64,000 nucleotides of DNA from an uncultured Chloroflexia bacterium (lineage in GTDB: Bacteria; Chloroflexota; Anaerolineae; Anaerolineales; Anaerolineaceae), in NCBI GenBank assembly GCA_963802095.1, contig CAWDHI010000006.1, positions 92,302-156,301 of the forward strand, given 5' to 3'. A program made the translations under genes and the position numbers. The notes under the pieces were generated by a model. That model saw only the letters and a list, made by a program, of their open reading frames with translations. It was not told the origin of the DNA and did not search any database. Positions 38,608 through 45,021 of this stretch are shown here, piece by piece. Positions within the stretch are counted from its first letter, which is position 1. Each line of letters opens with the position of its first letter.

Positions 38608-38635
38608 TTGACAATTCGATTTCCCTCGCTATAAT
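38608..38635 (+). promoter_or_regulatory. consensus sigma70 promoter TTGACA-16-TATAAT for the ubiquitination-like operon
   Basis: TTGACA at 38608-38613 and TATAAT at 38630-38635, both perfect hexamers, 39 nt upstream of the E1 ATG. Confidence 0.6.
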
Positions 38636-38665
38636 CTTGTTTAGTGGTCTGATTAACAAACAAGA
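38635..38665 (+). promoter_or_regulatory. 8-bp inverted repeat TCTTGTTT-15 nt-AAACAAGA spanning the predicted +1/5'-UTR (candidate operator or SD-occluding hairpin)
   Basis: Arms at 38635-38642 and 38658-38665. The right arm overlaps the only purine-rich SD-like stretch (AAGAG) before ATG 38674. Confidence 0.35.
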
Positions 38666-38673
38666 GAATAATA

Positions 38674-40317
38674 ATGACATTCAATCTTCTTCCCCGTAAA
38701 TCCCTATCCGACGTGCTGGCCGGGCGGATCGCCAATGCCATCACCAGCGGGAAATTCAAACCCCTCAGCCAGTTGCCCTCCGAACGCGAGTTGTGCGAAC
38801 AGTTCGGGGTGGGGCGCTCCACGCTGCGGGAGGCATTAAAAGTCCTGCAGGAGAATGAGCTGATCACCGGCAAGCAGGGAGTGGGCTGGTTCGTCAATGA
38901 GTTGAATGCCTCCAATCTTGCCAATGCCCGCGAGTTGGCAGCTACGGATCTCTCCCTGATCGCGGATGATACGGATAAAAAGGCGCGGGATGAATCTGCA
39001 GGACCCAAGCGGCTGCCGGTCTCGCCGGAAAAACCGCTGGTGCTGCCCAACCTGAAGACAGACCGGCAGGGGACCTTTGAGCTGATCTCCTGGTGGGAGC
39101 GCGATAAGGTGGCAAAGGCCAAGGTGCTGGTTGTGGGGGCGGGAGCGCTTGGCAACGAGGTGGCCAAAAATCTGGCGCTGATGGGCGTGGGGCAAATTTT
39201 CATCCTGGATTTCGATACCATCGAGCTGGCCAACCTGAGCCGCTCGGTACTCTACCGCGAAAGCGACACCGGCCGCCGCAAAGCCGAAGTGGCAGCCGCC
39301 CGGCTGAAGGACCTGAACCCCAATGTACGGGTGCAGTACCTGCATGCCGATGTGACCACCGGGCTGGGGCTGGGCATCCTCCGCCGGATGGATGTGATCA
39401 TTGGCTGCCTGGATAACCGCGAGGCCCGGCTGGCTGTGAACCGATTCGCCTACTGGATGAACAAACCCTGGGTGGATGGTGCCATCCAGGAGTTCCTCGG
39501 GCTGGTGCGGGTCTTCATCCCCGGGCAGGGTGCCTGTTTTGAGTGCACGCTTACTGAGCAGGCCAGGCGGGATCTTTCCCTGCGATATTCCTGCCCACTG
39601 CTGGCGCGAGAAAACGTGCTTCTTGGCAAGGTGCCCACCACGCCGACCATCGCCTCCATCATAGGCGCCATGCAGGCACAGGAAGCGCTCAAGATCATCC
39701 ATGCGTTGCCGGTTGAGGCGGGTAAGGTTACCCATTTCAACGGCATGACCAACGATATGCACACCAGCGCTTACAAACCGCGCGAGGATTGCGAATCGCA
39801 CTGGACCTACGGCGAGGTGACCGAGCTGCCTGCGAGCGCGGGCAAGACCACCCTGGGTGAGATGGTTCGCATTGTCCACGCCGACCTTGGCGCTGAGGCC
39901 GTGCTGGAGCTGGACCAGGAGATGATCATTTCCCTGAACTGCACTGCCTGCCAGACGCGCGAGCGGGTGTTGAAGCCCATGGCGGAGGTAACATTCAAAG
40001 CTGCGCACTGCCCAACCTGCGGCAACTTGCGCGAGATCGAAATGACCCACACGGTGACTGGCAAGGAGGATTACCTTTCCCTGACCCTTGCAGATGCGGG
40101 TGTTCCTGCGCTGCACATCCTGCGCGCCTATAATGCCCGTGAATACAGATTCTACGAATTGACCGGAGACTTGAAGGAAGCGCTGCACTTCAGCCATTTT
40201 GAAAAAGCTTCCCTGGTCGGTGCGACCCGCGGGATCAAAGTTCGCCTTGGAGAGGAAGAACCATCGATCGTCGTTAAACCAAAAGACAAAGGATCCAGGA
40301 TCACCCTGAAGGAATAG
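38674..40317 (+). CDS. GntR-type wHTH fused to an E1-like (ThiF/MoeB/Uba) adenylation domain and a C-terminal CxxC-x19-CxxC/beta-grasp-like region
   Basis: aa 10-78 LSDVLAGRIANAITSGKFKPLSQLPSERELCEQFGVGRSTLREALKVLQENELITGKQGVGWFV (GntR HTH). aa 148-215 KAKVLVVGAGALGNEVAKNLALMGVGQIFILDFDTIELANLSRSVLYRESDTGRRKAEVAA (E1 Rossmann/ATP site). Candidate crossover-loop Cys in RYSCPLL. C423xxC426...C446xxC449. Confidence 0.85.
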   Translation: MTFNLLPRKSLSDVLAGRIANAITSGKFKPLSQLPSERELCEQFGVGRSTLREALKVLQENELITGKQGVGWFVNELNASNLANARELAATDLSLIADDTDKKARDESAGPKRLPVSPEKPLVLPNLKTDRQGTFELISWWERDKVAKAKVLVVGAGALGNEVAKNLALMGVGQIFILDFDTIELANLSRSVLYRESDTGRRKAEVAAARLKDLNPNVRVQYLHADVTTGLGLGILRRMDVIIGCLDNREARLAVNRFAYWMNKPWVDGAIQEFLGLVRVFIPGQGACFECTLTEQARRDLSLRYSCPLLARENVLLGKVPTTPTIASIIGAMQAQEALKIIHALPVEAGKVTHFNGMTNDMHTSAYKPREDCESHWTYGEVTELPASAGKTTLGEMVRIVHADLGAEAVLELDQEMIISLNCTACQTRERVLKPMAEVTFKAAHCPTCGNLREIEMTHTVTGKEDYLSLTLADAGVPALHILRAYNAREYRFYELTGDLKEALHFSHFEKASLVGATRGIKVRLGEEEPSIVVKPKDKGSRITLKE

Positions 40318-40321
40318 ACGC

Positions 40322-41152
40322 ATGGAATCCGGCGATTCATCCTTGAAGGACAGGTTTAAAAAGACCGGCCGCGAGGCGCTCATCCTGGCAATTCGGCTGG
40401 TAGGAGTGATCTTGCCGGTGGTTGCCGCGGGTATCCTCCTGCTGCTCCTTTTTTTGCAGAATACGACTGTCCATCTGGTGGTCTTTGGTTTCACAACCAC
40501 AGTGTGCCTGGGTTTATTGGCCGGTTTCCTTTCCAGATGGATCCTAAAAAAAAGTACCTTTGCGCTACGCTTCCTGGTCGCGGTAGTTGCTTTATTTACC
40601 GGGATGGTGGTGATGTACTTGATCTCGAGCGGGATGCTGGGACTGAGCCCCTACATCCGGACTGCCATTGACTGGTACGGTCTGGTACAGATCGGGATCG
40701 GAGTGGGTGCTGTGTATATTGCAATAAAAGGGTTCCGCCGCAAGCAGGTTCAGGTCGAAGTGGATGCTCCAGCAGGATTATCCGCTGCAGCTCCCGCATC
40801 CGCGCAGCCCCTGGTGATTTCTGCGGCTGACGCCACCGTGATCACACCCGTACCTGGGAGAAGAAAATCAACGGCGAAAAAAAGCAAAAGCCCCACCAAA
40901 AAGGTGGCTGAAAAGAAGAAGGTGGTCGTCGGAAAAAAAGCAGCATCGAAAACAACACCAACAGCAAAGCGCTCCCGTAAAAAAGTGATCCTGGCGGCTT
41001 TTGATGAGCACCGCTGCCCTTATTGCCTTGAGGATGTCAAGCGCAACGATCCACGCGGGGTGGTTGTCTGCCCCATCTGCAAAGCCTACCATCACAAGGA
41101 TTGCTGGGATATCACCGGGCGCTGCCAGGTACCGCATGATACCCCGCTATAA
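40322..41152 (+). CDS. four-TM membrane protein with Lys-rich linker and C-terminal RING-like (prokaryotic RING/treble-clef) zinc finger; candidate E3
   Basis: TM helices around aa 18-46, 50-72, 80-104 and 117-136. Linker aa 180-221 has 16 Lys (KSTAKKSKSPTKKVAEKKKVVVGKKAASK...). C-terminus C232PYC235-x14-C250PIC253-x3-H257H258-x2-C261-x6-C268-x3-H272. Confidence 0.75.
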   Translation: MESGDSSLKDRFKKTGREALILAIRLVGVILPVVAAGILLLLLFLQNTTVHLVVFGFTTTVCLGLLAGFLSRWILKKSTFALRFLVAVVALFTGMVVMYLISSGMLGLSPYIRTAIDWYGLVQIGIGVGAVYIAIKGFRRKQVQVEVDAPAGLSAAAPASAQPLVISAADATVITPVPGRRKSTAKKSKSPTKKVAEKKKVVVGKKAASKTTPTAKRSRKKVILAAFDEHRCPYCLEDVKRNDPRGVVVCPICKAYHHKDCWDITGRCQVPHDTPL

Positions 41153-41173: not shown

Positions 41174-42019
41174 ATGCCCGAACTATCGATCACGATCGTT
41201 ATGCCCAACGGCGGAGCCCGCCGCGCCGATATCCCCGATGACCTGCCAGTGCGCGAGATCATCGCCGAGCTGACCTCGCTGCTCAAGCTGCCCACCGTGG
41301 GTCCCGATGGCCGCCCGATGGGTTATCGCCTGGATAGCAAAGCCCTGGGCCGCGAGCTTTGGGAGACCGAGACATTCTCCGAAGCAGGTATCCCGCCCGA
41401 GGATCGCCTGATGCTGACAGCGGATATCACTGCGGGCAGCACGGCGGTGAGTGAAAGCCCGCGCATGCGCAGGCTCCGCGCAGATTACCAGCTCGTACAG
41501 GAGCTGGCGGCGCGATCAGATCTGATCAAGGTGAACGCCAAACCGGTGAGCACCGGTTTCCTGCCCGAACGGTACATCATTACTTACCTCTGCAAGAGCA
41601 TTGCGAAGGTGGATCGCAAGGGTGAGCCAGTGATGGCCAGCCGGCACCAGGTGGAGATCTACCTGCACAACCAGTATCCCCAGCGCTGGCCGGGACTGAT
41701 GTGGCTGACGCCCATCTGGCACCCCAATATCAATCACCAGAATGGCAGCGTGTGCATCGATGCCGCCTGGTGGGCAGCCAGCCGTTCGCTCGACAGGCTG
41801 GTGATCATGATGGGTGAGATGCTGCAATACAAGAATTTTCATGATGATCCAACCAAGCCACCTTTTCCGTGGGATGTGGAAGCTGCCCGCTGGTGCCGCG
41901 AGTACCGCGCCAGGCACCCCAATATTTTTCCTGTTGATCGCCGTGAATTGCTGCGGCCCGAGCGGGTCAAGCTGCGCAGCACCGCTGCCCCAAAGCCTTC
42001 ACGTGTTCGGATCAAGTAG
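41174..42019 (+). CDS. ubiquitin-like (beta-grasp) domain fused to a UBC-fold E2 with eukaryote-type HPN...Cys active site
   Basis: aa 1-88 are paralogous to the free Ubl and end ...LTADITAG|S. E2 core ...YIITYLC...HQVEIYLHNQYPQRWPGLMWLTPIWHPNINHQNGSVCIDAAWW... (HPN 183-185, Cys194). Confidence 0.85.
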   Translation: MPELSITIVMPNGGARRADIPDDLPVREIIAELTSLLKLPTVGPDGRPMGYRLDSKALGRELWETETFSEAGIPPEDRLMLTADITAGSTAVSESPRMRRLRADYQLVQELAARSDLIKVNAKPVSTGFLPERYIITYLCKSIAKVDRKGEPVMASRHQVEIYLHNQYPQRWPGLMWLTPIWHPNINHQNGSVCIDAAWWAASRSLDRLVIMMGEMLQYKNFHDDPTKPPFPWDVEAARWCREYRARHPNIFPVDRRELLRPERVKLRSTAAPKPSRVRIK

Positions 42020-42055
42020 TTGGTCGTTCGATTCAAATCAAAAAAGGAGTTCAAA

Positions 42056-42322
42056 ATGACAGACAAATCTGTGACGCTTGTACTACCCTCCGGTGGAAGC
42101 CGCACTGCAGAAGTGCCGGATGATGTTCCCGTGAAAGAGCTGCTCCCCGAGCTGACCACTTCACTGGCTTTGCCGGTGACGGGGCCTGATGGCCGCCCAA
42201 TCAGCTACCGGATCGACAGCAAGGCCCTGGGACGCGAGCTACTGGAAGATGAAACCCTGGCAGCCGCGGGAATCCCGGCCGAAGACCGTTTGATGATCAC
42301 CGCGGATATCACCGCCGGGTAA
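42056..42322 (+). CDS. free ubiquitin-like (beta-grasp) protein ending in ...ADITAG-stop
   Basis: RBS AAAAGGAG 6 nt before the ATG. MTDKSVTLVLPSGGSRTAEVPDDVPVKELLPELTTSLALPVTGPDGRPISYRIDSKALGRELLEDETLAAAGIPAEDRLMITADITAG. C-terminal Gly directly before the stop. Confidence 0.8.
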   Translation: MTDKSVTLVLPSGGSRTAEVPDDVPVKELLPELTTSLALPVTGPDGRPISYRIDSKALGRELLEDETLAAAGIPAEDRLMITADITAG

Positions 42323-42350: not shown

Positions 42351-43022
42351 ATGGAAAACAGCCAGAACCGCATTCGCTTGATCCCGGAACACCTTCAGCC
42401 CACCCAGCAAGGACGCATGCCTTTAAAGCGTTCGATCCGCTGGGTGCCGGCGGGGGGTGAGGATAGCCAGACTGCCCCGGCGGTGGAGATCTTCTTCAGC
42501 CAGCGCGCGTATATCCGCGCATGCGCCATCGCCGGGCAGGATCTGAATAACGAAACCGGCGGTTGGCTGTTGGGAAAACACCGTGTGGATATTACGAGCG
42601 GACGCGACTATGTGGTGATCGACCGGGTGCTGCCCGCCGAGGCCACACGCTTCGGGCGGGCGCACCTGACCTTCACGCAGGATAGCATAGTGGCGATCAA
42701 CCGGGAGATGGAGGAGTGCTACCCTGGTAAGGAGCTGGTGGGTTGGTTCCATACCCACCCGCGCATGGGGGTCTTCTTTTCCACCTGGGATCACTGGCTG
42801 CACGAGAATTTTTATCCTGCTACCTGGCAGGTGGCGCTGGTGATCGAACCATACAATTTCTGGGGCGGGTTCTTCACCCAAACCACGGACGGGAACCTGG
42901 ATAACCACCGTTATTTTGGTTTTCACGAACTGACCGGCAGGGATGGGCGCAGCGTTGTGCTCTGGCGCAACCTGGTGCCCGCAAGTACCCCAAAGGCAGG
43001 TAAAGGAGGTTGTTTTCAATGA
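42351..43022 (+). CDS. JAB/MPN (JAMM) metallopeptidase; candidate Ubl-processing/deconjugating enzyme
   Basis: ...NNE68TGGWLLG... and ...GWFH134TH136PRMGVFFS144TWD147... give the complete E...HxHx7Sx2D JAMM motif. Confidence 0.85.
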   Translation: MENSQNRIRLIPEHLQPTQQGRMPLKRSIRWVPAGGEDSQTAPAVEIFFSQRAYIRACAIAGQDLNNETGGWLLGKHRVDITSGRDYVVIDRVLPAEATRFGRAHLTFTQDSIVAINREMEECYPGKELVGWFHTHPRMGVFFSTWDHWLHENFYPATWQVALVIEPYNFWGGFFTQTTDGNLDNHRYFGFHELTGRDGRSVVLWRNLVPASTPKAGKGGCFQ

Positions 43023-43936
43023 GCCGTGCAATGCGGATCTATTACTTTGCCATCCTGGGGGCCATTGGAGGGTTGTTTGCCTGGCAGGCAAGCAATTACC
43101 TCGGGTTGTCGTTCTTTGGCAACCTGTATATAAGCGAGCTGGGAGTGGGAGCGCTGATCGGTTTCCTGATCGGTGCGTGCATCGGGCTTTCCGATGGATT
43201 AATGACCAGAAATTACCACCAGATGTGGCAATCCGGGCTGGCAAGCGGCCTGCTCGGCATGGCCGGTGGAGCCATCGGGCTGCCGCTTGCGGAGGCTGTT
43301 TTCCAGCTGACCGGCGGGATGCTCTTCAGCCGGATGATCGGTTGGGGAATCTTCGGGCTGGCGATCGGGTTCGCCGGGGGAATCAAAGGCGGATCGCAAG
43401 CCTGGAAAAGCGCCCTGGGAGGGCTTCTTGGCGGCGCGCTTGGGGTGTTGCTGCTGGAGGTTTTCCGTACGCTGGTTAAATCACCGGTCTACGGAAAAGG
43501 CGCCGGGCTGCTGCTGCTGGGAGCGGGGATTGGCGCGTGCATTGCGCTCTTCACCTACCTGCTTACCCGTGCCTGGTTCGAGGTGACCAGCGGCAAGATG
43601 CAGGGCACCGAGTTCATTTTGGATAAATTCCTGAAAAAGGGAGGACCGGCGGCATTCATCGGCAGCTCTCCCATGAAGTCCGATATCGTCCTGCCGGACC
43701 CGGATATCGCCCCCCAGCATGCCATCTTGCGCGGGGCTGACACCTATTTCGTCCTGAAGGATCTCAGCCTGGGCGGGACTTTCATCGATGGGAAAAAGAT
43801 GGAGGAGGCGCCGCTGCGGGACGGGCAAACGATCAGCCTTGGGACATACGAAGATCGATCTACCGGGAGAAGAGAGGCTAACCATGAACAAGAACATTTC
43901 GAAAAATTATCGCCTTTTTCGTCTGCCTGGGATTGA
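43019..43936 (+). CDS. glycine-zipper-rich polytopic membrane protein with C-terminal FHA domain (frame break near 43845; probable true stop about 43881)
   Basis: ATGA overlap with the JAB stop. About 6 helices full of GxxxG (GVGALIGFLIGACIG, GLLGMAGGAIG, GWGIFGLAIGFAGGIKGG, GGLLGGALGVLLL). FHA core ...FIGSSPMKSDIVLPDPDIAPQHAILRGADTYFVLKDLSLGGTFIDGKKMEEAPLRDGQTISLG... Confidence 0.75.
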   Translation: MSRAMRIYYFAILGAIGGLFAWQASNYLGLSFFGNLYISELGVGALIGFLIGACIGLSDGLMTRNYHQMWQSGLASGLLGMAGGAIGLPLAEAVFQLTGGMLFSRMIGWGIFGLAIGFAGGIKGGSQAWKSALGGLLGGALGVLLLEVFRTLVKSPVYGKGAGLLLLGAGIGACIALFTYLLTRAWFEVTSGKMQGTEFILDKFLKKGGPAAFIGSSPMKSDIVLPDPDIAPQHAILRGADTYFVLKDLSLGGTFIDGKKMEEAPLRDGQTISLGTYEDRSTGRREANHEQEHFEKLSPFSSAWD

Positions 43937-44975
43937 TCCTTTCGCTGACAGCAGCACCGGTGCATGCCGGGGATGAGCCGGTGGTGCGCATCACCCAGGT
44001 GGATACATCGCGCTTCCCGCTGGTGACAGTCTATATCTCGGTGACCGATGCCAACGGGCAGCCACTGCCGGTCAACCCGGGCAGCCTGGTGGTGATGGAA
44101 AACGGCCAGCCGGTGGATGCCCAGCTCCTGCAGGGCGCAGGTGAAGCAGGTCCGGTCACCACGCTGCTGCTCATGGATACCTCAGGCAGCATGGCCACCG
44201 GCAAGAAGCTGATGCGCGCAAAGGAAGTGGCCAGGGATTTCATCGGCCGCATGCGGGCAGGTGACCAGACCGGCATTCTGGCATTCAACACCGACCTGAC
44301 CCTTGCGCAGGCTGTCACCGACGATACAGACTGCGCTGGATAATGCCATCGATAAGCTTTTTGCGCGCGGAGATACCGCCATGTACGACGCCCTGGTGAG
44401 GGGTGAGGATGTTCTGGCGGATGTGCCCGGGCGGAAGGCGATCGTGGCGCTGACGGACGGGATGGATAACCGCAGCTCGGTGAAAGCCGCAGACGTGATC
44501 GGGAAGATCGCAGCCAGCGGGCTGACCATCTCGACCATCGGGCTTGGGGATTCCAACCAGACCAGCGGCAGCCAGACCGCGCTGGATGAAAAGGCGCTGA
44601 GGTATCTGGCGGAAAATAGTGGCGGACTCTATAGCTTCGCCAAGGACCCTGCTGCACTGGCAGCGATCTATGAACTCTACCAGCGCGGGCTTCAGAGCGA
44701 GTACGCGGTGACGTACACATCACCTTCCTCCCTGCGTGACGGGCTGAATAGGGTGCTTTCGGTCTCGCTGAGCGAGCAGGCGGCTGCAGTACCTGCGAAA
44801 TACAACCCCGGCGGGCTGGTGCCCGAGGTGGGTCAGCCGGCATCCTGGGGAGCGTTTCTCGGGATGCTTGGGTTTCCTGGTGCTTCTGCTCTTCGTGCCA
44901 ACCATCGTGAAGGAGGTGCGCATCCGCAGGGAGCACGGCGCCCTCGAAAGCAGCCGAGCCATCGGGGAAGGTTAA
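43884..44975 (+). CDS. von Willebrand factor A (vWA) domain protein with signal peptide and C-terminal TM anchor (3 frame breaks)
   Basis: MNKNISK(K)IIAFFVCLGLILSLTAAPVHA after correcting an A-run. MIDAS LLLMDTSGSM. ...GDTAMYDAL...ALTDGMDN...TISTIGLG... Tail ...FLGMLGFLVLLLFVPTIVKEVRIRRE... Frames change near 43905, 44325 and 44870. Confidence 0.75.
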
Positions 44976-45021
44976 GCTGAAGGAATCTCCTTCGAAGAGG
45001 ATCAAATTGAAGTAGGAAAGT

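What the first reader, a model, noticed from the sequence alone, without database searches (positions are those of the whole stretch)
41174..42322. Ubl-E2 fusion followed by a free paralogous Ubl; both Ubl copies end in ADITAG, suggesting JAB-dependent release of a Gly C-terminus
Seen: the first 88 aa of the E2 protein and the 88-aa free Ubl align without gaps, with about 57/88 identical positions by my hand alignment. The free copy stops right after ...ADITAG. In the fusion the same hexapeptide is followed by STAVSESPRMRR and then the UBC core (HPN 41720-41728, Cys194 codon 41753-41755). Established: Ub-like modifiers need an exposed C-terminal Gly. Eukaryotic Ub is made as fusions processed by DUBs. 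Bacterial Bil/Bub and CBASS systems pair E1/E2 with JAB or other peptidases. Inference: the fused Ubl is either a cis-precursor cleaved at AG|S by the adjacent JAB, yielding two Ubl species, or a non-cleavable regulatory Ubl that mimics a charged E2. The single terminal Gly (AG rather than GG) is also unusual.
Basis: partly seen in the sequence, partly recalled or inferred. Interest (0 to 1): 0.75.

Follow-up and report, generated by a model that had tools for sequence, protein, structure and literature searches.

The report
Ubiquitin-like protein fused to its E2
A Chloroflexi (Anaerolineae) bacterium carries a complete eukaryote-style ubiquitin-type tagging operon in which one copy of the tag is made fused to the front of the E2 enzyme, probably to be cut off by the neighbouring JAB protease, and a second copy is made free; this kind of system was already predicted from genomes, and it is untested in the literature I could search.

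Summary
Residues 1-88 of the 281-aa E2 protein and the 88-aa free protein align without gaps at 57/88 identity (E 5e-43). Both end in ADITAG. HPN and Cys194 sit at the stated coordinates.

The two genes lie in a seven-gene cassette: GntR-E1, membrane Prok-RING_1 E3, Ubl-E2, Ubl, JAB, membrane FHA, vWA. The whole cassette is conserved in most of about 25 Anaerolineae-type genomes; short contigs hold only part of it.

The two Ubl copies form separate clades, so the duplication is old. Both keep D[IV]TAG.

Comparative evidence favours a JAB-cleaved precursor:
- The sequence after the Gly is variable and starts with a small residue in 115 of 120 homologues.
- The linker is the low-confidence stretch of an otherwise confident AlphaFold model.
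- Free Ubls in distant relatives, and in one Anaerolineae genome, carry 1-5 extra residues after TAG.
- Four distant operons contain only the fused Ubl.
- One genome has the E2 without the Ubl.

Cleavage itself is untested here. JAB release of an E2-fused Ubl was predicted by Aravind's group (2011, 2020). It was shown experimentally for the unrelated Type I Bub BubAB.

Verdict: a real feature and a new member of a known, predicted kind. Interest is moderate.

The parts
38630..38670 (.). 13-nt inverted repeat (TATAATCTTGTTT / AAACAAGAGAATA) just upstream of the E1 start; candidate operator for the GntR domain of the E1 (speculative)
   Evidence: not tested for conservation
38674..40317 (+). E1: N-terminal GntR winged-helix domain (residues 13-74), ThiF adenylation domain (130-374), CxxC at 288-291, conserved loop Cys307 in RYSCPLL (codon 39592-39594), C-terminal zinc ribbon (423-450)
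   Evidence: Pfam ThiF 3.9e-59 and GntR 1e-18. Best solved relatives are the active adenylation domains of eukaryotic UBA1/UBA7. Cys and Zn ligands are conserved in the Anaerolineae orthologues aligned. Coordinates.
40322..41152 (+). Membrane-anchored RING-type E3: at least 3 hydrophobic helices, a basic linker, and a C-terminal Prok-RING_1 finger (residues 229-272, 41009-41137)
   Evidence: PF14446 at 34.2 bits, above its 29.1 cut-off. Cys/His ligands conserved. Hydrophobic windows.
41174..41437 (+). Fused Ubl (Ubl1), residues 1-88, YukD-like beta-grasp ending ADITAG; Gly88 codon 41435-41437 is the proposed cleavage and activation site
41438..41458 (+). Linker STAVSES (residues 89-95): variable sequence, 7 aa long in 111 of 120 close homologues, first residue A/G/S in 115 of 120; lowest pLDDT between the two domains
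41459..42019 (+). E2 (UBC) core, residues 96-281: helix alpha1 begins at PRMRRL, HPN at 41720-41728, catalytic Cys194 at 41753-41755
   Evidence: Pfam UQ_con; phmmer against PDB gives UBE2K/UBE2D; Foldseek gives UBE2K, UbcH5, Rad6; 70 standalone homologues start 0-18 residues (most 2-6) before this motif
42044..42049 (+). AAGGAG ribosome-binding site of the free Ubl gene
   Evidence: read directly from the sequence
42056..42322 (+). Free paralogous Ubl (Ubl2), 88 aa, ending ADITAG followed by the stop codon
42351..43022 (+). JAB/JAMM metallopeptidase with intact motifs: Glu68 in NNETGG (42546-42563) and HTHPx4FFSxxD (42750-42791)
   Evidence: Pfam Prok-JAB/JAB; motifs conserved; closest solved relative is Caldiarchaeum Rpn11-like 6fjv
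43010..43936 (+). Membrane protein with a C-terminal FHA domain (residues 217-278); the 3' end is probably disturbed by a frameshift
   Evidence: Pfam FHA 1.8e-12; conserved position in all loci that reach it; comparison with L001
43933..44980 (+). vWA-domain protein, split here into at least two ORFs (43933-44343 and 44303-44980); the orthologue is one 411-aa ORF with a signal peptide, a vWA domain and a C-terminal membrane helix

Best explanation
The two genes belong to a complete E1-E2-RING E3-JAB ubiquitin-like conjugation cassette that is conserved in Anaerolineae. I propose the following mechanism.
1. The Ubl-E2 protein is a proprotein. The adjacent JAMM peptidase cuts after Gly88 in the flexible linker. 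This releases a 9.6-kDa Ubl1 with a free C-terminal Gly and a 22.7-kDa E2 whose alpha1 helix starts 7 residues later.
2. The free Ubl2 is translated already mature.
3. The E1 adenylates Gly88 of either Ubl and passes it through its loop Cys307 to E2 Cys194.
4. The membrane-anchored RING E3 directs transfer to targets at the membrane. The co-encoded FHA and vWA membrane proteins, or their partners, are candidate targets.
5. The JAB also reverses conjugation.

Shown here: the domains, the catalytic residues, conservation of the cassette, the old duplication, the conserved xTAG junction, and the natural fused-only and free-only variants. Inferred: cleavage, conjugation, targets and reversal.
For: Junction: D[IV]TAG is kept in all 25 fused and all 26 free copies taken from genomes. 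25 of 26 free copies stop exactly after Gly, and one ends TAGA. 120 of the 121 closest database homologues have D[IV]TAG, then a linker, then P[RH]xRRL, with a small first linker residue (A 80, G 24, S 11). A conserved P-side with a variable P'-side is the pattern expected of a processing site.

Distant fusions of 30-45% identity still have [hydrophobic]-x-A-G, a variable linker, and PRxRRL.

Processing after TAG is needed elsewhere in the family. Free Ubls end TAG|STRG, TAG|MNSLG, TAG|LGR and TAG|R.

Fused-only operons exist: E1-RING-UblE2-JAB (L029-31), Ank-UblE2-E1-JAB (L041/42), E1-UblE2-JAB (L035) and TGase-UblE2-E1 (L037/38). A Ubl HMM finds no other Ubl on these contigs. In those systems a modifier can only come from cleavage.

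L025 has a standalone E2 that starts MTVRVTDSPRVRRL, with 7 residues before the SPR motif; the window linker has 6 (STAVSE). 70 of the 98 more distant cluster representatives in alignment A2 are standalone E2s that start at the same place.

The AlphaFold model (pLDDT 89.4, pTM 0.64) shows a beta-grasp at residues 3-84, a pLDDT dip at 81-95, and E2 alpha1 from residue 96.

The JAB motifs, E1 Cys and E2 HPN/Cys are conserved.

Precedents: BubC cuts BubAB after a conserved Gly (PMC11601596). Caldiarchaeum Rpn11 processes pro-Ub, and it is the nearest solved relative of this JAB. The same prediction has been published for RING tri-ligase systems with a Ubl-E2 protein (PMC7159879).
Against: There is no direct evidence of cleavage or conjugation for this family in the literature I could search.

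A mature free Ubl is already encoded, so the cassette does not need the fused copy as a source of modifier. Yet the fused copy has been kept under purifying selection since before these lineages split. That hints at a role beyond supplying more of the same protein.

Linker length is fixed at 7 residues in 111 of 120 close homologues. A fixed length could equally reflect a functional tether.

The fused-only contigs are 3.9-9.8 kb, so a Ubl gene elsewhere in those genomes cannot be excluded.

The relative orientation of the two domains could not be inspected, because coordinates and PAE were not available.
Confidence: 0.6

Rival explanations
1. The fused Ubl is never cleaved. It acts as a built-in regulatory or scaffolding domain of the E2, and only the free Ubl2 is conjugated. 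Possible roles are docking the E2 onto the Ubl-binding site of the E1, binding the E2 backside to promote processivity, recruiting the JAB or the RING, or serving as a built-in acceptor.
For: Both copies have been retained as separate clades over long divergence. The free copy is already mature. Linker length is nearly fixed at 7 aa among close homologues. Some distant relatives have N-terminal beta-grasp-like domains with no Gly at the junction (P0161, P0206 and P0227...WAAYPRE...) or with AAA, which may be non-cleavable. L025 shows that the E2 can work without the fused copy, so the fused copy is an accessory.
Against: An uncleaved domain has no obvious need for a tail identical to the conjugatable copy, yet DITAG is invariant. 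Only two positions differ consistently between the fused and free copies (residue 36 L versus S, residue 42 V versus T). The surfaces seen by E1 and JAB therefore look the same. Fused-only operons with E1 and JAB would then have no modifier. In the one case tested experimentally, BubAB, the fusion is cleaved.
Confidence: 0.22
2. The YukD-like domains are non-conjugated structural adaptors, as YukD of type VII secretion is reported to be. On this reading the E1/E2/JAB genes act on something else.
For: The best Pfam match for both copies is YukD. B. subtilis YukD was reported not to be conjugated (as summarised in PMC1779556).
Against: No type VII secretion genes are present. Unlike that context, the Ubls here sit inside an E1-E2-RING-JAB cassette. 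They have an invariant C-terminal Gly that is exposed, or followed by short propeptides in relatives. From my memory of its abstract, Burroughs et al. 2011 proposed that such YukD-like Ubls are conjugated; that paper could not be read here.
Confidence: 0.05
3. The fusion is an assembly or gene-calling artefact, for example a lost stop codon between a Ubl gene and an E2 gene.
For: The window and related nanopore-derived MAGs do carry frameshifts in neighbouring genes.
Against: The same in-frame fusion, about 281 aa long, occurs in the top 120 of 1874 database homologues from NCBI, ENA, JGI and Logan, and in 25 independent genomes. It also occurs in relatives of 30-45% identity.
Confidence: 0.01

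Closest known systems
Prokaryotic 'tri-ligase' Ubl systems with a Prok-RING E3 (Burroughs, Iyer and Aravind 2011, Mol Biosyst 7:2261; Kaur et al. 2020, eLife, PMC7159879)
   Same: [quoted passage not shown] The authors predicted that the JAB releases the Ubl. The RING here matches Pfam PF14446 above its threshold, and the Ubl is YukD-like.
   Different: The 2020 examples are embedded in FtsH/vWA-MoxR conflict systems with EAD1 adaptors and caspase-like effectors. Here there is no MoxR, FtsH, EAD or evident effector. Instead there is a GntR-E1 fusion, a membrane FHA protein, an exported vWA protein and an additional free paralogous Ubl. The proteins are highly conserved, with the E2 at 65% identity or more across the 25 genomes. 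The 2011 paper could not be read here, so I cannot say whether this exact cassette was drawn in it.
Type I Bub operons: BubAB, BubCD and BubE (PMC11601596)
   Same: The Ubl is encoded as an N-terminal fusion to the E2. A JAB/JAMM peptidase cuts immediately after a conserved Gly to make the functional Ubl. This has been shown by Edman sequencing.
   Different: BubB uses a catalytic Ser and lacks a Cys. BubCD is a JAB-E1 fusion that lacks a catalytic Cys. A DUF6527 serine protease (BubE) is present. There is no RING E3 and no second free Ubl. Here the E2 is a classical HPN/Cys UBC, E1 and JAB are separate genes, and no DUF6527 was found in the cassette.
Caldiarchaeum subterraneum Ub operon: Ub, E1, E2, small RING and Rpn11 (PMC5654768, PMC6043591)
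   Same: A full E1/E2/RING-E3/JAMM set in one operon. The modifier is made as a precursor that Rpn11 processes. This JAB's best solved relative is CsRpn11 (6fjv, E 1.9e-4). The E1 and E2 are closest to eukaryotic UBA1/UBA7 and UBE2K/UBE2D.
   Different: The modifier here is YukD-like rather than ubiquitin-family, and it ends in AG rather than GG. One copy is fused to the E2. The RING is membrane-anchored. The E1 carries a DNA-binding domain.
Bil (BilABCD) and type II CBASS Cap2/Cap3 anti-phage systems
   Same: E1/E2-type conjugation with a JAB peptidase that processes or reverses conjugation.
   Different: PADLOC models of these systems do not match the E2, the Ubl or the RING. Only generic E1 adenylation-domain and JAB hits appear. 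There is no E1-E2 fusion and no CD-NTase.

Membership tests
Prokaryotic RING-containing tri-ligase Ubl system (Burroughs 2011 / Kaur 2020) | E1-like adenylating enzyme encoded in the operon | tested here: met
   ThiF E 3.9e-59; the nearest solved relatives are UBA1/UBA7
Prokaryotic RING-containing tri-ligase Ubl system (Burroughs 2011 / Kaur 2020) | UBC-fold E2 with an HPN-type flap and a catalytic Cys | tested here: met
   UQ_con 39.8 bits against a 27 cut-off; HPN and Cys194 are invariant in alignment A1 and at least 90% conserved in A2; Foldseek gives UBE2K and UbcH5
Prokaryotic RING-containing tri-ligase Ubl system (Burroughs 2011 / Kaur 2020) | Prokaryotic RING finger (Pfam Prok-RING_1) E3 | tested here: met
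   PF14446 34.2 bits against a 29.1 cut-off; Cys/His ligands conserved
Prokaryotic RING-containing tri-ligase Ubl system (Burroughs 2011 / Kaur 2020) | JAB/JAMM peptidase with intact metal and catalytic motifs | tested here: met
   Prok-JAB 32.8 bits against a 25 cut-off; E..HxHx7Sx2D conserved
Prokaryotic RING-containing tri-ligase Ubl system (Burroughs 2011 / Kaur 2020) | Beta-grasp Ubl with a C-terminal Gly, in some versions fused to the E2 | tested here: met
   YukD Pfam hits; beta-grasp in the AF2 model; xTAG terminus or junction
Prokaryotic RING-containing tri-ligase Ubl system (Burroughs 2011 / Kaur 2020) | Actual Ubl-target conjugation and JAB-dependent release | not testable with these tools
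   Needs biochemistry
Type I Bub (BubAB/BubCD/BubE) | Ubl-E2 fusion protein | tested here: met
   (architecture only)
Type I Bub (BubAB/BubCD/BubE) | E2 with a catalytic Ser in place of Cys; E1 without a catalytic Cys | tested here: not met
   Cys194 is invariant; the RYSCPLL Cys is conserved in the E1
Type I Bub (BubAB/BubCD/BubE) | JAB fused to the E1 (BubCD) and a DUF6527 serine protease (BubE) | tested here: not met
   E1 and JAB are separate genes, and no DUF6527 hit was found among the cassette proteins
Bil (BilABCD) / type II CBASS | Match to the PADLOC BilA/BilB/BilC or Cap2 (E1-E2 fusion) models | tested here: not met
   No PADLOC hit for the E2, Ubl or RING; only partial matches of the E1 adenylation domain and weak JAB hits
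YukD of type VII secretion | Sequence match to PF08817 | tested here: met
   E 2.9e-8 and 6.3e-10
YukD of type VII secretion | Type VII secretion context (EssC/EsxA) and a non-conjugated Ubl | tested here: not met
   The neighbours are E1, RING, E2 and JAB. The terminal Gly is exposed or followed by short propeptides.
Archaeal/eukaryote-like Ub operon (Caldiarchaeum type) | Ubiquitin-family (PF00240) modifier ending in GG | tested here: not met
   No PF00240 hit for either copy at E <= 0.1, and both end in AG

The most novel reading that the evidence does not exclude
The fusion is a zymogen-like pro-E2. The Ubl sits only 7 residues from helix alpha1, which is the surface that E1 and RING bind in known E2s. 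It would keep the E2 inactive until the JAB cuts at Gly88. One proteolytic event would then both switch on the E2 and release a second, slightly different modifier (Ubl1: Leu36/Val42; Ubl2: Ser36/Thr42). This would explain why a free mature Ubl and a fused Ubl have both been kept since before the Anaerolineae lineages diverged. It would also make the 'deubiquitinase' the activator of the pathway.
Probability: 0.15. Interest if true: 0.65.

Novelty: new member of a known kind. Interest (0 to 1): 0.42.

Why it matters
Bacterial E1-E2-RING E3-JAB cassettes are the closest bacterial counterparts of the eukaryotic ubiquitin cascade. I found no experimental study of them in the literature I could search; one review calls them 'uncharacterized'.

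This Anaerolineae version looks like a good model for three reasons:
- It is compact, with seven genes.
- It is strongly conserved, with the E2 at 65% identity or more across the 25 genomes.
- It has natural fused-plus-free, fused-only and free-only variants that make the precursor question directly testable.

If cleavage is confirmed, the BubAB principle (the modifier delivered as an E2 fusion) would extend to a classical Cys/HPN E2 that works with a RING E3. The membrane RING, FHA and vWA partners also point to membrane-proximal targets rather than an obvious anti-phage effector. That raises the question of what a ubiquitin-like system does in the ordinary physiology of these filamentous bacteria.

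Tried and rejected
- The first AlphaFold run, on 24 sequences of at least 70% identity, gave a poor model (pLDDT 54). I replaced it with a 115-sequence alignment (pLDDT 89.4).
- The key prior papers, Burroughs et al. 2011 (PMC5938088) and 2012 (PMC5881585), are not held. What they say is taken from citing papers and from my memory of the abstract.
- PADLOC gave no assignment to a known defence system.
- Literature searches for YukD-like conjugation, Ubl-E2 fusions and Anaerolinea ubiquitin systems found no experimental work on this family.
- Flank synteny is shared only with the four closest genomes. It therefore says nothing about function.
- I suspected a Hint-type self-cleaving domain after the second Ubl of P0161 (TVAG|C...). 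Pfam did not support it, so I dropped the idea.
- Domain docking (backside versus active site) could not be assessed because model coordinates and PAE are not returned. Only pTM 0.64 alongside pLDDT 89 suggests a loosely defined orientation.
- Multimer prediction of JAB with the fusion was not possible with the tools.
Full report
OBSERVATION. The finding is accurate.

The ORF at 41174-42019 encodes a 281-aa protein. Its first 88 residues align without gaps to the 88-aa product of 42056-42322, with 57/88 identities, 74/88 positives and E 5e-43. The free gene has its own AAGGAG ribosome-binding site (42044-42049) and stops directly after ...ADITAG.

In the fusion, ADITAG (residues 83-88, Gly88 codon 41435-41437) is followed by STAVSES and then PRMRRL. 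HPN lies at 41720-41728 and the Cys194 codon at 41753-41755, exactly as stated.

Pfam assigns both N-terminal modules to the YukD beta-grasp family (E 2.9e-8 and 6.3e-10). It assigns the C-terminal part to UQ_con (E 4.2e-10, above the gathering score).

CONTEXT. The two genes sit in a seven-gene, same-strand cassette:
- E1 with an N-terminal GntR winged-helix domain (38674-40317).
- A multi-pass membrane protein ending in a Prok-RING_1 finger (40322-41152; PF14446 at 34.2 bits against a 29.1 cut-off).
- The Ubl-E2 fusion.
- The free Ubl.
- A JAB/JAMM peptidase (42351-43022).
- A membrane protein with a cytoplasmic FHA domain (43010-43936).
- A vWA protein (43933-44980, split by frameshifts in this window).

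The enzymes look active. The E2 HPN and Cys are invariant. The E1 keeps CxxC, a loop Cys in RYSCPLL and a zinc ribbon. The RING keeps its Cys/His ligands. The JAB keeps E...HTHPx4FxSxxD.

By sequence against the PDB, the E2 is closest to eukaryotic UBE2K/UBE2D. The E1 is closest to the active adenylation domains of UBA1/UBA7. The JAB is closest to the Rpn11-like protease of Caldiarchaeum. PADLOC models of Bil and CBASS do not match the E2, Ubl or RING.

CONSERVATION. The fusion is not an artefact.

A search of 5.8 billion proteins returned 1874 homologues. The best 120 all carry PF08817 plus PF00179, most are about 281 aa long (272-340), and all are at least 70% identical.

In one genome per species of GTDB, 26 Chloroflexota loci (mostly Anaerolineae) were recovered. 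Most contain the complete cassette in the same order; four short contigs are cut off at one end and L025 lacks the fused Ubl. Flanking genes are shared only among the four closest genomes, so the cassette itself is the conserved unit.

All 25 fused copies keep D[IV]TAG. 25 of the 26 free copies end exactly ...D[IV]TAG-stop, and one (L022) ends TAGA.

On a neighbour-joining tree, the fused and free copies are reciprocally monophyletic. Same-genome identity is 65-78%. Only two positions differ consistently: residue 36 (L versus S) and residue 42 (V versus T). The duplication therefore predates the divergence of these lineages. Both copies are under purifying selection and present nearly the same conserved surface.

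IS THE FUSED COPY A PRECURSOR? Seven lines of comparative evidence say it probably is.

(1) The P-side of the junction is invariant and the P'-side is not. In 120 of the 121 closest homologues the motif is D[IV]TAG, then a linker, then P[RH]xRRL. The first linker residue is A (80), G (24) or S (11), and the rest is variable.

(2) Fusions of only 30-45% identity still have hydrophobic-x-A-G, then a variable linker, then PRxRRL. One subgroup has AA(A) instead.

(3) Free Ubls in distant relatives are themselves precursors: VVTAG|STRG, EPTAG|MNSLG, ATTAG|LGR and QMTAG|R. Cutting after TAG is therefore a requirement across the family. On this view the E2 is simply a very long propeptide.

(4) Four distant operons contain only the fused Ubl:
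- E1-RING-UblE2-JAB (L029-31, 9.8 kb).
- Ank-UblE2-E1-JAB (L041/42, 9 kb).
- E1-UblE2-JAB (L035).
- TGase-UblE2-E1 (L037/38).

A Ubl HMM finds no other copy on these contigs.

(5) One Chloroflexota genome (L025) has the same cassette with a standalone E2. It starts MTVRVTDSPRVRRL, at the position of the linker, and the free Ubl is retained. Of the 98 more distant cluster representatives in alignment A2, 70 are standalone E2s that start 0-18 residues (most 2-6) before the PRxRRL helix.

(6) With a diverse 115-sequence alignment, AlphaFold gives a confident model (pLDDT 89.4). It shows a canonical beta-grasp at residues 3-84 and a UBC core from helix 96-114. The lowest confidence between the domains is at 81-95, and pTM is only 0.64. 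This fits two domains on a flexible tether. Foldseek confirms a class-I UBC fold.

(7) There is an experimental precedent. In Type I Bub operons the Ubl-E2 fusion BubAB is cut by the JAB domain of BubCD immediately after a conserved Gly (PMC11601596). Caldiarchaeum Rpn11 and BilC also process their modifiers.

WHAT ARGUES THE OTHER WAY.
- The cassette already encodes a mature free Ubl, so the fused copy is not needed as a source of modifier.
- The fused copy has nevertheless been kept for a long time.
- The linker length is fixed at 7 residues in 111 of 120 close homologues.
- Some distant relatives have junctions without any Gly.

These points keep alive the reading that the fused Ubl is an uncleaved regulatory domain. 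They also suggest a hybrid reading. The Ubl sits 7 residues from helix alpha1, the E1/RING-binding surface of known E2s (established knowledge). It may mask the E2 until the JAB cuts it off. None of this can be settled without biochemistry or multimer models.

COMPARISON WITH WHAT IS KNOWN. The cassette belongs to the class of prokaryotic tri-ligase Ubl systems with a prokaryotic RING E3 defined by Burroughs, Iyer and Aravind (2011).

Kaur et al. [quoted passage not shown] They predict that the JAB releases the Ubl. Reviews from the Corbett laboratory list such RING-containing operons as rare and uncharacterised.

It is not a Bub system: it has a Cys E2 and a Cys-bearing E1, E1 and JAB are separate, and there is no DUF6527. 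It is not Bil or CBASS (no PADLOC match). It is not a T7SS YukD (wrong context, exposed Gly).

Several things appear specific to this Anaerolineae cassette:
- The extra free paralogue.
- The GntR-E1 fusion.
- The membrane RING with FHA and vWA partners, and no obvious effector.
- The unusually high sequence conservation.

Distant relatives of the E2, by contrast, are fused to TIR and JAB domains or lie next to EAD/TPR and TIR genes. That is typical of conflict systems.

I could not read the 2011 paper, so I cannot rule out that this exact cassette was already drawn there.

The remark that a single terminal Gly is unusual is not compelling. xAG is the family consensus. From general knowledge, ATG8, ATG12 and UFM1 also end in one Gly.

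VERDICT. This is a real and well-described feature.

The most likely mechanism is that the JAB cuts Ubl1-E2 after Gly88. The E1 then activates Ubl1 and Ubl2 and loads E2 Cys194. The membrane RING directs transfer to membrane-proximal targets. I put confidence in this at about 0.6.

It is a new member of a known, computationally predicted kind and is of moderate interest. Its main value is as a tractable model with natural fused-only and free-only variants.

Noticed in passing
window 43880-44980 (also L001 3503-5144 and the L003 E1): The vWA gene is broken into at least two overlapping ORFs (43933-44343 and 44303-44980). The 3' end of the FHA gene and the signal-peptide region of the vWA gene also differ in frame from L001, where the vWA is one 411-aa ORF with a signal peptide, a vWA domain and a membrane helix. 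Related MAGs show frameshifts in other genes. Long-read indel errors are as likely as real pseudogenisation.
   Followed up: partly
window 38674-38900 and 38630-38670: The E1 carries an N-terminal GntR-type winged-helix DNA-binding domain (residues 13-74). This domain is conserved in the Anaerolineae cassettes, but the roughly 400-aa E1s of distant relatives lack it. A 13-nt inverted repeat lies immediately upstream of the start codon. An E1 that is also a transcription factor would be unusual. Conservation of the repeat was not checked.
   Followed up: partly
L025 3049-3952: One Chloroflexota MAG (JAHJIN010000576) has the same cassette, but its E2 lacks the fused Ubl. The E2 starts MTVRVTDSPRVRRL behind its own GGAGGAG ribosome-binding site. 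The free Ubl is kept.
   Followed up: yes
L017 8240-8662, L022 7895-8317, L023 4557-4967: Three genomes have an additional, divergent JAB paralogue (36-40% identity) inserted between the free Ubl and the main JAB. The two peptidases might divide the work of precursor processing and deconjugation.
   Followed up: no
P0161, P0189, P0179, P0206 (representative proteins); L043 5732-6901; L029 7953-9374: Distant relatives of this E2 occur in large fusion proteins: Ubl-E2-Ubl-TIR, Ubl-TIR-JAB-E2, TIR-JAB-E2 and Ubl-like-E2-TIR. Others lie next to TIR or EAD8-TPR genes. Those versions are probably parts of immunity or conflict systems, unlike the effector-less Anaerolineae cassette.
   Followed up: partly
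P0210 (312 aa representative protein): This protein has two tandem YukD-like Ubl repeats, each ending ...IAG and followed by D or G (a polyubiquitin-like head-to-tail precursor), and then a non-Ubl C-terminal region. It is another hint that processing after xAG is general in this family.
   Followed up: no
L017 6001-7248: The Ubl-E2 ORF in this Ardenticatenales MAG runs to 415 aa, about 130 residues longer at the C-terminus than the usual 281. This may be a real extension or a read-through caused by an assembly error.
   Followed up: no
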